NCBI GenBank assembly: GCA_964016885.1
Contig: OZ024749.1
Coordinates: 37,572,001-37,636,000 of the forward strand
Origin: Eledone cirrhosa
Taxonomy: Eukaryota
Direction: 5' to 3'
DNA: 64,000 bases
Within the stretch, counting starts at the first letter, position 1. Every line of letters starts with the position of its first letter. A model generated the notes under the pieces. It ran no database searches. It was not told the origin of the DNA and saw only the letters and a program-made list of their open reading frames with translations. This document shows, in pieces, positions 560 through 61,646 of the stretch. Position numbers and translations under genes: made by a program.

Positions 560-745
560 AACGAAAGAAGTGTGGTAAGGAACCAGATGGACCATAACGC
601 ACCAGAGTACTCAATACTTAGGGTATTAGAGTGGGTAATAGGAGAAAGTATTACCCCGACGGCAGAGCTCAAGCCGTTTCAAAGGCTATTTCTGGACTAA
701 TGTCGAAACGGCTTGAGTTCTGCCGTCGGAGTCATACTTTATCCT
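560..745. mobile_element. Family B (TA)n-embedded fold-back element, diverged copy
   Basis: acgaaagaagtgtggtaaggaacc...ggactaa followed by an inverted short arm ending cct(AT)n. Confidence 0.85.
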
Positions 746-918
746 ATATATATATATATATATATATATATATATATATATACATATATATACATATATA
801 TATATATATATATATATATATATATATATATATATATATATATACGTATATATATATATACATATATATATATATACAATATATTAACAAATGGAAACTA
901 TATTTATAAAATCATATG

Positions 919-983
919 TATTTTATTATACATATTTCAAGGGCCCCCAAGGCAAATTATGGTGCGTTTCATCAGATAAAATA
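919..983 (-). ncRNA. Type I hammerhead ribozyme, family C mirror copy
   Basis: Reverse complement: tattttat-CTGATGA-aacgcaccataatttgccttgggggccctt-GAAA-tatgta-TA-ataaaata. Confidence 0.65.
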
Positions 984-1084
984 TAATACAGATTAGTTTT
1001 ATAAATAAATATTGACATACCCTGAACAAAAGACAACCTTAACGGTTGGGGGTTCCTGGATAGTTATAAAACTAATCTGTATTA

Positions 1085-1150
1085 TATTTTATCTGATGAA
1101 AGCGCACCATAATTTGCCTTGGTGGCCCTTGAAATATGTATAATAAAATA
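1085..1150 (+). ncRNA. Type I hammerhead ribozyme, family C
   Basis: 8-bp stem I tattttat/ataaaata, CTGATGA 1093-1099, stem II hairpin, GAAA 1131-1134, minimal stem III, AUA cleavage triplet ending at 1142. Confidence 0.75.
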
Positions 1151-1524
1151 AATATGGTTTTATAAATATAGTTTCCATTTGTTAATATATTGTATATTTA
1201 CTCCACTAACTTGTTGAGTGCTTTATATCAGTTATAAACATTTTTTTTAAGCTTGTTGAATCCCAACAAATTAAATATAACCTCTGCATATATATATATA
1301 TATATATATATATATATATATATATATATATATATATATATATATACATATGTACATACACACACACACACACACACACACACACACACACACACACACA
1401 CACACACACACACACACAGATTATATGTATATATATATATATTTGCATGCTGAATGTAAAATAACACTAACATATTAATACACAACATCACTAATGTATG
1501 GTAACATTCTTCTCTCTTTTACAG

Positions 1525-1637
1525 ATGCTGAACTAGATCGATTACAAAATCAACAGGCTGCTTTTACAGAATTACATCTACGGGGAGATTTGACCGCCAT
1601 CTACCGGGACAATTTGGCAGTTGTCGGAATGGGATAA
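1525..1637 (+). CDS. Candidate terminal coding exon of an unidentified host gene: (D)AELDRLQNQQAAFTELHLRGDLTAIYRDNLAVVGMG*
   Basis: Branch-like cactaat (~1489), polypyrimidine tract and cag acceptor ending 1524; only one frame open, to TAA 1635-1637; AATAAA at ~1672; non-repetitive coding-like composition. Confidence 0.5.
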
Positions 1638-3566
1638 AACGAGAATGACCTCAACTATGTTAATTATGTTTAATAAATATCATTATAAAAAATACAAATA
1701 AATATGTATATATATTTATATACATCAAAACAGAATATACACCGACATATGTATGTATGTATGTATGTATGTATGTATGTATGTATGTATGTATGTATGT
1801 ATATATATATATATATATATATATATATATATATATATATATATATATATATATATATATATATGTGTGTGTATATATATGTATATATATGTATATATAC
1901 ATACCTATATACATTTATATATATATATATATATATATATATATATAAATATATATATATATATATATATATATATATATATATATATATATATATATAT
2001 ATATATACATACATACATACATACATATATATATATATATATATATATGTGTGTATATATATATATATATATATATATATATATACATACATATATATAT
2101 ATATATATATATATATATATATATATATATATATATATATATATATATATATATATATATATACATACATATATATATATATAAGTATATATATATATAT
2201 ATATATATATATATATATATATATATACATACATATATATATATAAGTATATACATATATATATGTATATATATATGTATATGTATAATGTACGCTCGCG
2301 TGCATGGAATGAGACGCGAAGGGGAAATGTGTTTTAATGAAATAACTTAATGAATCAGTCGGCGAAACAATATCATGGCAGCCTATCGTATGTATACACA
2401 TATACACATACTTACACTCACACGTACACACATTCACTCACTCACATTATACATGTATATATATGAATGTGTATATATATGTATGTATATATACATATAT
2501 ATATATATATATATATATATATATATATATATATATATATATATGTATATGTATGTATGTATGTATGTATATTTATAGATGTATATATATATATATATAT
2601 ACATATATATATGTATATAAATATATATATATATACATATATATATATTTATATATATATATATATACATATATATATATATATATATATATATATATAT
2701 ATATATATATATATATATATATATATATATATATATATATATATATAAATATACAGAGGGAGAGAGAGATATATATTGAGAGAGAGAGTGACAGAGAGCC
2801 AGAGAGAGAGAGCGAGATGTGTGTGCGTGTGTGTGTGTGTGTGTGTGCATTTGTGTATATATGTATGTGTGTGCCTTTATTCATTTAAAAAATGTAACGA
2901 AAAACATTGATTGAAACAGAACTCAATACGTGAAGTGGATTGAAATATAATTTTGATTCTATTGATTATATCTGTAATCAGAATATCTGGCGAAAGATCT
3001 AGAACAATGGGTGTTTAACTCTTTTATAACTCGCAGAATCTCCAAAAATATAATATACATACAGCATGACTTGATCAATGAAATTTTGTTGTCATGGTCT
3101 TTCTTTCCCTCGTTCTGACCCCCCCGGGTAGCAGATTTCAGGACGATGTGACCCCATGGAGAGAAATATTATTATGGAACCTCAAATCACATGGAAACAA
3201 TTTTGGCAGTAAGCATTGAATTAGCCGTCGCAGGGCCCAAAATGTTTAATACGTAACCCTAAATGGCTGAAATGAAAACGAAGAATTCTGTAGAACCCAG
3301 CAATTCTGTGGAATCTATGGTCAGGGGACCAGATAAGCCACGTGACTTTTGTCTTGCTAAGATAATCCAATTTGAAACAGTTTTAACAAGTTACATTTCT
3401 GATTTAAAGAAAATTAAATTATTTATATGCTACCTTCACAAATGATTTCTTTTTCCTGAATATTATCATTAAACACACACACACACACACACACACACAC
3501 ACACACACACACACACACACACACACACACACATATATATATATATATATATATATATATATATAT

Positions 3567-3744
3567 AACGAAGGAAATGTGGTAAGGAACCAGGTGGACC
3601 ATAACACACCAAAGTACTCAATACTTAGGGTAGTAGAGTGGGTAATAGGAACGAGTAGGACCCCGACGACTGAGCTCAGTCCAGAATTAGCCGTCGAAAC
3701 GGCTTGAGCTCAGCCGTTCAGCCGTTGGGGTCCTACTCGTTCCT
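3567..3744. mobile_element. Family B fold-back element
   Basis: Long arm on minus plus inverted short arm, with a small internal duplication cagccgtt; (TA)n flanks. Confidence 0.9.
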
Positions 3745-3832
3745 ATATATATATATATATATATATATATATGGAAAGTTATATTTAAATTGTTGGGTTA
3801 CAACTAGTAAATATTTATAACTGTCTATATTG

Positions 3833-59767: not shown

Positions 59768-59884
59768 AAAGACATATCTAGTATATTTGTTTCTACTTTA
59801 GGCACAAGGCCAGCAATTACCCAGTTCATTACTGGTACTTTATTTTATCGACCCCGTAAGGATGAAAGACATATCTAGTATATT
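59768..59884 (-). mobile_element. 5'-truncated S1 SINE with ~20-bp target-site duplication
   Basis: aaagacatatctagtatatt at 59768-59787 and 59865-59884 flanks an S1 3' end. Confidence 0.85.
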
Positions 59885-60360
59885 GGTATGTAAACATACT
59901 AGAAAATATGAATTTCTCTGTAAATTGTAAAAATGATTAGCACCTTTAATCAATTGTTTTTATTTCATCAGAAAACGTGTATATCATCCAATCACTCACA
60001 AGGAAACATGTATTTGAGTGGTATCTATAATTATATAAATATATGGACATATATATATGTGTATATACCAATTCACTTTCATATATATAGATATATGGTC
60101 AGATATATATATATATATATATATATATATATATATATATATATATATATATATATATATATATATATATATATATTTATATATATATATATATACAGAA
60201 ACAAAGAAATGAGTTACGACGTCATTCATGTCAAGCCCTATCGGCCATTGGCTTTCAAATGGACAACATCAGTGGCGTGGAGAGGAAAAGGCTGGTATGC
60301 ATGGGCGACTGCTGGATTTCCACAAATAACCTTGTCCGGACTTGTTCCTTGGAGGGGAAC

Positions 60361-60512
60361 TTTGTAGTTTCAAATCCTATGGTCATTCCTGACCGAAGGG
60401 GCTTTGTACCCTTTACCCATATATATATATATATATATATATATATATATATATGGGTAAAGGGTACAAAGCCCCTTCGGTCAGGAATGACCATAGAATT
60501 TGAAACTACAAA
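60361..60512. repeat. 58-bp inverted duplication centred on an (AT)n tract
   Basis: tttgtagtttcaaat...ctttaccc-(AT)n-gggtaaag...atttgaaactacaaa. Confidence 0.9.
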
Positions 60513-60724
60513 TATATACAAGTGGAAGCTTAGTAAAATCGAAGCTTTGGCTGTGGTCAAGCAAGGTCGACCTACAATAAGGAATGAGTAGCAAAGCACT
60601 CAATAAGGGTAGGTCCTGAGAGTAATAACATACTTTTAAATAGCTTGACAAATTGAAAATTGCGGTAGACAAAACCCAACCATACACTACCAAAGTAACG
60701 AAAGAACTAATCAGGTTAATAAAC

Positions 60725-60863
60725 ATACCTGGACAGATCGGACGATATTCTGCAATACGTCCGATATGTTTCTATGAATCTGAAATCATCTATCCAACTT
60801 ACGTAACACGTAAGCTTGTGGTATTCCATGATCGAACAGGGGATTAATTTCATCAACAGGCAT
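60725..60863 (-). ncRNA. Long-stemmed hammerhead, family M (element ~60519-60880), C3U-mutated
   Basis: Reverse complement: atgcctg-TTGATGA-77-nt stem II region-GAAAC atatcggacg...cgtccgatct GTC-caggtat. Confidence 0.6.
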
Positions 60864-60902
60864 TCCGTTCTATTGCCTCAATATATATATATATATATAT
60901 AT

Positions 60903-61094
60903 AGCGAGGGAAAAGTGGTAAGGAACCAGGTGGACCATAACGCACCAAAGTACTCAATACTTAGGGTAGTAGAGTGGGTAATAGGAGTAAGTAAGACCCC
61001 GACGGCTGAGCTCAAGCCGTTTCGACGGCTAATTCAGTACAGAATTAGCCGTCGAAACGGCTTGAGCTCAGCCGTCGGGGTCTTACTTACTCCT
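60903..61094. mobile_element. Family B fold-back element
   Basis: Both arms carry the variant gagtaagtaag; (TA)n flanks. Confidence 0.9.
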
Positions 61095-61454
61095 ATATAT
61101 ATATATATATATATATATATATGTTCTTTTTTGAGGACTAGTAAAATATATGTGTGTGTGTGTGTGTGTGTGTGTGTGTGTGTGTGTGTGTGTGTGTGTG
61201 TGTGTGCGTGGGTTTGTAAGTATATATATATATGTGTGTGTGTATGTATTAACCTTTTAACACTCAAAAATGTTTAATGGGATAGAGACCCTGGCCAACG
61301 AATACCCCCCCCCCCCCCCACTCTCAAGAGCGTGAAATTAATAAACATTTGTTGTACTGCCTCTCTGTTTTATTCCCGTGCAATTTTTCATTATATATAT
61401 ATATATATATATATGTGTGTGTGTGTGTATGTGTGTGTATGTGTGTGTATATAT

Positions 61455-61646
61455 ATATTATAAAGAAGAGAGACTGTTTAATATGCACATCCTCTGTTTA
61501 TTATATAATAAACAGAGGATGTGTATAAAAAACGGTTTCTGTTTATAATATTGACACACCGTGTAATACATTAAGAAGGTACCCATTCCGTGGAGTACTT
61601 AAGTCTATATAAACTACAATTGGTTTGATTAATTGATCAACCAACG
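61455..61646. mobile_element. Fold-back element with a perfect 38-bp core palindrome (61486-61523) and 3' tail
   Basis: cacatcctctgtttattatataataaacagaggatgtg; tail contains tggagtact. Confidence 0.65.

What the first reader, a model, noticed from the sequence alone, without database searches (positions are those of the whole stretch)
560..61646. Shared architecture: (TA)n - short arm >< long arm + 3' tail - (TA)n
Seen: unrelated families A, B, C, D, E, F, G, H, I and the elements at 7678, 56101 and 61455 are head-to-head inverted pairs. One arm stops at a family-specific point and the other continues for a 25-160 nt tail; in family B the short arm ends at cct|(AT)n in every fold-back copy. 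Known: PLEs often show inverted 5'-truncated terminal repeats and a one-sided tail. Inference: both ends of a break in (TA)n prime cDNA synthesis, one at the RNA 3' end and one at an internal TA-matching site, and the two cDNAs are joined at their 5' ends.
Basis: partly seen in the sequence, partly recalled or inferred. Interest (0 to 1): 0.82.

Follow-up and report, generated by a model that had tools for sequence, protein, structure and literature searches.

The report
Double-primed Penelope stubs in TA repeats
These lopsided mirror-image inserts in TA repeats are the cut-down ends of Penelope-type jumping genes, a known layout, but nearly every pair joins one short-ended and one long-ended copy of the same variant, which likely means both sides of a DNA break copy one RNA from two fixed start points and gives a testable clue to an unsolved step in how these elements move.

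Summary
The layout is real: about 22 head-to-head inserts sit between (TA)n runs here. They are pseudo-LTR ends of endonuclease-bearing Penelope-like elements (PLEs). Family B is the end of a young 3,542-nt tandem element whose RT-GIY-YIG protein fits the Hydra clade. A, E and J adjoin Hydra-like ORFs; I and G adjoin Neptune-like ORFs. Inverted 5'-truncated copies, a one-sided tail and (TA)n targeting are published.

Measured here for B: arms end at two sites 80 nt apart (22,456 vs 22,971 matches). 57 of 59 close pairs join one end of each kind, 55 of 59 share the subfamily variant, and long arms pair with long arms. Either arm can reach further 5', which argues against snap-back copying.

Most stubs stop at a sharp edge about 30 nt below a TATA box in several families, likely the transcript start (inferred; no RNA data; no cap-G signal). 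This scan reached similar readings on other DNA before.

The parts
561..744 (-). Family B fold-back; tail 561-640, untailed end at 744
877..1287 (+). Family A fold-back; type I hammerhead motif in both arms (1093 +, 975 -); tail 1193-1287
   Evidence: family A lies on both sides of a Hydra-like ORF in L041
3568..3743 (-). Family B fold-back; tail 3568-3647
7678..7890 (-). Family D fold-back; tail 7678-7716
   Evidence: related to G; no ORF reached
8713..9186 (+). Family G long solo arm that keeps the TATA box 30 nt above the point where short G arms begin
9229..9367 (-). Family B solo tailed arm
18396..18613 (+). Family B fold-back; sense arm from about 18473, 3' half of the hammerhead with predicted cut after 18516, inner site 18533, tail 18534-18613
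21437..21623 (+). Family C fold-back with hammerhead motif; tail 21548-21623
   Evidence: ORF not reached
21901..22296 (-). Family H fold-back with hammerhead motif; tail 21901-21981
   Evidence: ORF not reached
23101..23310 (-). Family L fold-back (arms 23158-23309); 22994-23100 is a different abutting repeat
23952..24117 (+). Family B fold-back; tail 24038-24117
24378..24612 (-). Family B fold-back with a templated insertion at the joint; tail 24378-24457
29493..29670 (+). Family B fold-back of the youngest variant (98% to the intact parent); tail 29591-29670
29695..29890 (-). Family E fold-back; tail 29695-29764
   Evidence: (E follows Hydra-like ORF ends in L062 and L100)
33395..34011 (-). 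Family I fold-back; tail 33395-33449; TATA box 31 nt above the short-arm edge
   Evidence: parent has a 775-aa RT + GIY-YIG frame with Neptune-type motifs
34054..34468 (+). Family A pair with the tail (34054-34144) on the SHORT arm (34145-34189); the long arm has no tail
35055..35294 (-). Family A pair whose tailed arm (about 35236-35294, +) holds only tail sequence and does not overlap the untailed arm
   Evidence: read by eye; hammerhead motif
41860..42264 (+). Family G fold-back; tail 42238-42264 (here the untailed arm ends 37 nt further out than in most G pairs)
   Evidence: (a Neptune-like RT lies between tandem G ends in L308)
45328..45519 (-). Family B fold-back; tail 45328-45407
46295..46430 (+). 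Older family B solo tailed arm
56101..56487 (-). Family K pair; long untailed arm 56101-56360, short tailed arm 56365-56420 (+) with tail 56421-56487
   Evidence: in L056 the DNA upstream of K translates like a PLE endonuclease C-terminus (by eye)
57246..57655 (-). Family J fold-back; hammerhead motif in both arms; tail 57246-57334
   Evidence: (Hydra-like ORF end about 0.9-1.2 kb upstream in L261, L262, L264, L265)
60904..61093 (-). Family B fold-back; tail 60904-60983
61459..61665 (+). Short degenerate palindrome 61466-61543 with a 122-nt overhang; family unverified
   Evidence: no other copy; no hammerhead
213..550 (-). Solo 3' end of another Hydra-like family (resembles the end downstream of the ORF in L036)
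   Evidence: by eye; weak hammerhead variant

Best explanation
The inserts are end fragments of Penelope-like retroelements, and each pair is likely made at insertion when both cut ends of a (TA)n target prime reverse transcription on one element RNA, one end at an inner site and the other 80 nt further on, after which the two cDNA 3' ends are likely stitched head to head by end joining. Shown: family B is contiguous with a 3,542-nt tandem element coding RT and GIY-YIG; arms end at two sites, each followed in the template by TAT; pairs are one of each kind, of one variant and of one length class; joints carry microhomologies or templated insertions. Inferred steps: (1) the GIY-YIG domain, perhaps as a dimer, nicks both strands of (TA)n; (2) 2-6 nt of TA pairing sets the register at each start site, and a small hairpin just downstream (RCTC...GAGYRC in the Hydra-type tails) may place the enzyme; (3) the joint is repaired by polymerase-theta-like joining; (4) the start sites used most often are the copies near the 5' end of the transcript, so both enzymes run off the RNA 5' end after about 60 and 140 nt and leave a stub, while sites in a downstream pseudo-LTR give kilobase-long arms of the same layout.
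For: Parent: tandem 3,542-nt units with a 719-aa ORF; 62 matches at 98-100% over the whole protein, a lower bound. End sites: 22,456 arms stop at the inner site and 22,971 read on; 27,244 tails run into TA and 332 into the ORF. Coupling: 57 of 59 pairs within 300 nt are inner/outer, P=6e-15 against independent choice, and 55 of 59 share two diagnostic bases against 0.31 by chance. Also 51 of 57 in fetched loci, 24 of 28 in arbitrary DNA with no like-with-like pair (overlaps), and 15 of 15 full-ORF insertions with both ends in view. Other families: A 14/14, J 6/6, C 8/9, G 7/8, E 3/3, D 2/2, I 3 clear of 4. Length class: 62 of 100 long arms have a long partner, against about 6% expected. No copying of one arm from the other: either arm reaches further 5' (15 vs 16), and in L072, L081 and L098 the tailed arm holds little more than tail. 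Joints: 13 of 30 long pairs have insertions, several with 10-18 nt matches next to the ends, and 7 of the other 17 have 2 nt or more of microhomology against 15% by chance. 5' edge: 50 of 59 arms stop within unit positions 3395-3425 and only 2 go beyond. Loss per nt is 0.08-0.18 across the edge and 0.007 above it. A strict TATA box lies 30-31 nt above the edge in C, G and I, looser ones at 32, 25 and 23 nt in D, B and A. Literature: the anole PLE protein cuts and extends both strands, starts at two internal sites that bound the tail, and is predicted to be a dimer (PMC11167929); the Drosophila Penelope transcript starts inside the upstream pseudo-LTR (PMC2377424).
Against: No RNA data. No extra G at arms that stop exactly at the proposed start (209 of 1,818), so there is no cap signature. 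None of 20 full-ORF arms begins at the proposed start; 13 reach into the unit upstream and 4 begin 40-100 nt downstream. J has no TATA box and E has no sharp edge; the loose TATA pattern and the exact +1 positions were chosen after seeing the data. The B edge also coincides with a hairpin inside hammerhead loop II and with a pyrimidine-tract AG. Shared variant and length class show a shared source but cannot tell one RNA molecule from two molecules of one locus. About a third of arms are unpaired. Identical joints recur (tandem twins in L066). The in vitro study found no difference in start site between strands and no homology between start site and cut DNA (PMC11167929). Empty target sites were not seen.
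Confidence: 0.75

Rival explanations
1. Same double priming, but the short arms stop because RT pauses at folded RNA (hammerhead stems) or because a processed or separately transcribed short RNA is the template, not because it reaches the transcription start.
For: The B edge lies in the stem II/loop II hairpin; the C edge lies at the 5' border of hammerhead stem I; no cap G; no full-length arm starts at the edge; several edges have a pyrimidine-AG like a splice acceptor, and in Drosophila Penelope the intron end maps to helix I (PMC4209133).
Against: Arms include the AG and 2-5 nt above it. TATA boxes lie 30-31 nt above the edge in three families. In I and C the enzyme has already passed the whole structure before stopping. 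A chance pause would not make long arms pair with long arms.
Confidence: 0.22
2. Both arms start at the outer site and the endonuclease later trims the tail from one side while resolving the intermediate (the reading offered in PMC8557442).
For: It would give strict inner/outer pairing. The Drosophila endonuclease needs the tail for recognition, as cited in PMC11167929.
Against: The inner end is followed in the template by TA-matching bases in every family read (TAT in B, TATAT in A, C and J, TATA in G and K), as priming predicts and a trim does not. Both sites in B precede the same hairpin. Two RT start sites bounding the tail were measured in vitro (PMC11167929).
Confidence: 0.1
3. One cDNA folds back on itself (snap-back self-priming) and its copy forms the second arm, as suggested for rotifer PLEs (PMC3846280).
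For: The arms share variants; some joints sit on short palindromes.
Against: A snap-back copy cannot reach further 5' than its template or hold sequence it lacks, yet the untailed arm is longer in 15 pairs and the tailed arm in 16, and some arms barely overlap (window 34054, 35055, 56101).
Confidence: 0.05
4. The palindromes are non-autonomous masters (MITE-, fold-back- or SINE-like) that move as ready-made units.
For: The 40 best genome matches to one copy are 96-100% identical across the whole 192 nt, and many share one joint.
Against: Joints differ among the 8 window copies and across 57 pairs. The same layout holds from 100 nt to more than 9 kb. The ends are asymmetric and continue into RT-GIY-YIG ORFs. 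With at least 22,000 copies and a 25-nt hot zone, repeated joints are expected.
Confidence: 0.04
5. Assembly or library artefact (fold-back chimeras at TA repeats).
For: Palindromes next to long (TA)n are hard to sequence; no read spanning this window's own copies could be shown.
Against: Fixed end sites in raw reads of other samples, varied arm-to-arm joints in independent contigs, arms that have diverged with age, and the one-sided tail.
Confidence: 0.01

Closest known systems
Insertions of endonuclease-bearing PLEs: inverted 5'-truncated copy plus one-sided 30-40 bp tail (PMC8557442, PMC3846280, PMC2377424)
   Same: Head-to-head pair, tail on one end only, partial tandems forming pseudo-LTRs, hammerhead motif, microsatellite targeting.
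   Different: Tails here are 27-95 nt. Over 90% of B arms are 60-140-nt stubs with a sharp 5' edge. The papers call the tail optional and suggest self-priming or endonuclease resolution, whereas here inner/outer pairing is nearly strict.
Hydra-clade PLEs, including Hydra-1_Obim (PMC8557442 section 11 and supplement)
   Same: DKT, RWK-like motif, CxCX5C linker, no CCHH, CxxC and CxH around the catalytic E and N, hammerhead, (TA)n target; by eye the N-terminus resembles Hydra-1_Obim.
   Different: The unit is 3.5 kb (Hydra elements are generally under 3 kb); RWR instead of RWK; U3-A8 hammerhead with a long stem III and loop II; at least 22,000 stub pairs.
Poseidon_Ac of the green anole in vitro (PMC11167929)
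   Same: Two internal RT start sites bounding the tail, downstream of the hammerhead; both target strands cut and extended; AT-rich target.
   Different: There the start sites are not homologous to the cut DNA and the strands did not differ in site use. Here each site is followed by TA-matching bases and the two ends of an insertion use different sites.
L1 twin priming (recalled; not read)
   Same: The second target strand primes internally on the same RNA, giving a 5' inversion joined by microhomology.
   Different: L1 inversions cover a different, upstream part of the RNA from a variable site; here both arms copy the same stretch from fixed sites.
Non-LTR retrozymes (bioRxiv 10.64898/2026.07.22.740005)
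   Same: Short hammerhead-bearing sequences derived from PLE pseudo-LTRs.
   Different: Retrozymes are head-to-tail arrays with a whole ribozyme per unit; these are head-to-head pairs, and B stubs keep only half the ribozyme.

Membership tests
Endonuclease-bearing PLE | One ORF with RT and C-terminal GIY-YIG, contiguous with the repeat | tested here: met
   B: 719-aa ORF with YRDD and VIY..YIG, 2,186 relatives; no Pfam hit in the local library, but it aligns over the endonuclease with the family I protein (E 5e-7), which hits RVT_1 and GIY-YIG. ORF links also for A, E, J, G, I and in part K. Not reached for C, D, H, L, M.
Endonuclease-bearing PLE | Tandem or partial-tandem units forming pseudo-LTRs | tested here: met
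   Five units at a 3,542-nt period; partial tandems; G tandem in L308.
Endonuclease-bearing PLE | Inverted 5'-truncated copy and one-sided tail | tested here: met
Endonuclease-bearing PLE | Type I hammerhead motif in the pseudo-LTR | tested here: met
   Descriptor hits in B (parent), A (5 copies), C, H, J and two solo families, with 0-1 of 100 shuffles; the parent folds into the three-way junction. Missed by the descriptor in D, E, G, I, K, L, M. Rfam gave no hammerhead hit. Cleavage not tested.
Endonuclease-bearing PLE | Target-site duplication | not testable with these tools
   Both flanks are (TA)n (median 26 and 28 nt); no empty site was available.
Hydra clade (family B parent) | DKT in place of DKG; RWK motif | tested here: met
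   SDKTG and LRWRT (RWR variant), against PMC8557442 section 11.
Hydra clade (family B parent) | No CCHH in the endonuclease; CxCX5C linker; CxxC and CxH around E and N | tested here: met
   CNCPDRSIC, a single C between VIY and YIG, CNLC and CKH.
Hydra clade (family B parent) | Placement in the Hydra RT clade on a tree | not tested
   No reference set was on hand; resemblance to Hydra-1_Obim by eye only.
Neptune clade (family I parent) | DKG, CX2-5CxxC linker, CxxC inside GIY-YIG | tested here: met
   ADKGG, CNDNRCGTC and LIYCIKCPNC..YVG in the 775-aa frame; no tree built.
MITE / DDE fold-back element | Symmetric terminal inverted repeats, constant interior, DDE partner | tested here: not met
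   Ends asymmetric by a fixed tail, interior joint variable, partner is RT-GIY-YIG.
Non-LTR retrozyme | Head-to-tail units each with a complete hammerhead | tested here: not met
   Head-to-head pairs; B stubs lack the 5' half of the ribozyme.

The most novel reading that the evidence does not exclude
PLEs insert as an asymmetric two-enzyme machine on a single RNA: twin hairpins seat one RT at each of two sites, each cut strand of the target primes one of them, and most events use the cap-proximal sites, so the genome fills with palindromic copies of the first 60-250 nt of the transcript. The published inverted repeat and tail would be obligatory products of one reaction shared by Hydra- and Neptune-type elements, and some repeats filed as unclassified SINEs or MITEs in such genomes would be these by-products.
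Probability: 0.45. Interest if true: 0.72.

Novelty: new member of a known kind. Interest (0 to 1): 0.52.

Why it matters
How PLEs form their inverted repeats, tail and microsatellite bias is named as open in PMC8557442, and PMC11167929 leaves the steps after priming unvalidated. This genome holds tens of thousands of minimal products of one young family with intact ORFs. They argue against snap-back copying for most pairs and point to coupled priming from two fixed sites. The intact protein, a 250-nt RNA and a (TA)n target make that directly testable. Such stubs cover about 13% of this window (36 segments), so they also matter for repeat annotation.

Tried and rejected
Rfam on the window and on two arms: only chance miRNA or snoRNA matches, no hammerhead. 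Pfam and PDB sequence searches with the B protein: nothing. No PLE ORF fragment in the window itself. Cap-G test: negative. Hammerhead cleavage as the cause of the B edge: rejected, since the predicted cut is about 44 nt downstream of the edge, though a few arms start near it (L217, L223). Added TA at one end: no asymmetry (medians 26 vs 28). A TATA-spacing pattern for J over the genome matched noise equal to its control. Sequencing runs: no RNA holder listed. Empty-site test: repeats are skipped by the tool, so no verdict. In the RAD reads most molecules end at an AATT inside the arm, likely the library enzyme, so few cross the joint and read ends at the 5' edge were not used as evidence. ORFs for C, D, H, L and M were not reached. 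One reference contained (TA)n and gave junk, which I ignored; the G anchor failed, so the G spacing comes. One search leaves out loci picked by likeness to one copy or by a joint pattern; one search leaves out L001-L030; one search drops one listed match beyond the range of the other list. No structure or complex prediction and no tree was run.

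
Full report
Setting. The window is G000:C9:37572001-37636000 of a 3.0-Gb AT-rich animal genome with dense (TA)n. I infer an octopus-type genome from these features; this was not tested.

Observation. A hairpin scan, self-BLAST and self-alignment show about 22 head-to-head inverted pairs between TA runs, each with an overhang on one side. Family B has 11 copies; 8 are fold-backs, all with an 80-nt tail and an untailed arm ending at CC|T(AT)n. Verified tails in other families are 27-95 nt. 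The 164-nt overhang at 22994 includes another repeat, and the element at 61459 has no other copy in the loci held. The tail lies on the shorter arm at 34054 and 56101. Solo arms are frequent (30 of 86 B arms). Raw reads of other samples carry both end sites into (TA)n, and reads and contigs show varied arm-to-arm joints.

What they are. A pattern from the 5'-most part of B found 2,974 places, among them a run at a 3,542-nt period. That unit codes a 719-aa protein with RT and GIY-YIG motifs, and family B is its end. 62 near-identical whole ORFs were returned. The motifs match the Hydra clade as defined in PMC8557442 section 11, a clade that inserts into (TA)n and has an octopus member. A, E and J adjoin Hydra-like ORFs. 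I adjoins a 775-aa frame with Neptune-type motifs and Pfam RT and GIY-YIG hits. G ends flank a Neptune-like RT, and K follows an endonuclease-like C-terminus. C and H carry hammerhead motifs but their ORFs were not reached. The B parent holds a U3-A8 type I hammerhead, a core variant described in PMC4209133.

End sites. In the parent, B arms stop after unit position 3464 or 3544, and the template continues with TAT at both. Genome-wide exact counts are 22,456 arms stopping at the inner site and 22,971 reading on, and 27,244 tails into TA against 332 into the ORF. The tail end is therefore an internal point about 94 nt before the ATG. PMC11167929 found the same in vitro for an anole PLE: two internal start sites bounding the tail, both strands cut and extended, and a predicted dimer. 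Following a lead from earlier notes of this scan, I found an RCTC...GAGYRC hairpin in the tails of 6 of 11 families (shuffle rate 0.3%), and in B a second one just after the outer site. It is absent from D, G, I, K and M, L is a near miss, and it was not found after the outer site of one A copy.

Coupling. Pairing the first listed places (99 and 100 places on 27 Mb of C1) gave 59 close head-to-head pairs. 57 join an inner with an outer end, and 55 share both diagnostic bases against 0.31 by chance. Fetched loci gave 51 of 57 (1 inner/inner, 1 outer/outer, 4 with an odd end). Arbitrary DNA plus the window gave 24 of 28 with none alike (overlapping). Of 20 full-ORF insertions, 17 have an inverted partner, and all 15 with both ends in view are inner/outer. 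The other families agree. Long arms are about 6% of arms, yet 62 of 100 have a long partner. The two arms thus share variant and length class.

Not snap-back. The untailed arm reaches further 5' in 15 pairs and the tailed arm in 16, and some tailed arms hold little beyond the tail, so neither arm can be a copy of the other. Among 30 long joints, 13 have insertions, several templated from next to the ends, and 7 of the remaining 17 have 2 nt or more of microhomology against 15% by chance. This fits polymerase-theta-like joining of two cDNA 3' ends; the pathway name is my inference.

Why so short. 50 of 59 young B arms stop in unit 3395-3425, with the edge near 3403. Counts fall from 38,585 to 9,565 to 2,974 across it and then level at 2,511 (the patterns differ in length, so the ratios are rough). 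Sharp edges also occur in C, G, I and J. A strict TATA box lies 30-31 nt above the edge in C, G and I, looser ones in D, B and A, and none in J. Drosophila Penelope starts transcription in the upstream pseudo-LTR (PMC2377424). I infer that stubs are copies of the transcript's 5' end. Against this: no cap G (209 of 1,818), none of 20 full-ORF arms starts at the edge, RNA structure coincides with the edge in B and C, and no RNA was available. I put this step at about 0.6-0.65.

Known and new. The architecture, the tail, the ribozyme and (TA)n targeting are published (PMC8557442, PMC3846280, PMC4209133). I found no paper reporting near-strict inner/outer pairing, shared length class, or stub edges at the start site in eight searches. 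Subscription papers are not searched, and I did not read the supplementary figures of PMC11167929, which map tail ends and may bear on this. Earlier notes of this scan on this and other genomes reached the same double-priming, transcript-start and hairpin readings; they are not independent support.

What I saw of each paper. PMC11167929: parts 1-2 of 4 (abstract, main text, start of methods). PMC8557442: passages, section 11 and supplement search hits. PMC3846280, PMC4209133, PMC2377424 and PMC13282606: passages. The retrozyme preprint: parts 1-2 of 5. L1 twin priming, the cap-G signature, TATA and initiator consensus, and polymerase-theta signatures are recalled, not read.

Verdict. A real feature: new families of a known kind of element. 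Interest 0.52.

Noticed in passing
window 60361-60512: A 58-nt inverted repeat with the (AT)18 run between the arms, the reverse of the layout above (arms 98.7% complementary); no hammerhead motif found.
   Followed up: no
window 8212-8566: Nested inverted repeats directly behind a family E arm and not bounded by TA; one weak match elsewhere.
   Followed up: partly
window 6757-7158, 13511-14310, 24930-25364, 39834-40286, 54753-55212, 58143-58393, 63773-64000: An abundant dispersed repeat, often as direct dimers, with a tRNA-like start by eye; it is not arranged as fold-backs and serves as a contrast.
   Followed up: no
L102:1170-4741: Within the tandem array of the B parent, a 55-nt piece of the ORF is repeated about 65 times right at the head-to-head joint.
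   Followed up: no
L218, L223, L224, L217: 4 of 20 full-ORF arms begin at unit 3445-3502 of the upstream repeat, at or near the predicted ribozyme cut and the inner start site, which hints at a second stop.
   Followed up: partly
L305, L306, L311; L308: The family I and G parents have an extra upstream frame before the RT frame; many family I copies are 100% identical over the 81 nt searched, so it looks very young.
   Followed up: no
L066:263-671: Two identical B fold-backs in tandem with the same joint, separated by (TA)8; probably a local duplication.
   Followed up: no
PMC8557442 supplement, sequence printed just before Hydra-1_Obim: By eye, the end of another Hydra element carries the same RCTC...GAGYRC hairpin after its hammerhead, so the signal may be clade-wide.
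   Followed up: no
G000:C1:21287378-21306176: A tandem array of about 65-nt units showed up in an unrelated pattern search.
   Followed up: no
window 18919-18958 and 19062-19101; 17994-18046 and 18716-18768: Short exact duplicates, one direct and one inverted, inside a long TA-rich field.
   Followed up: no
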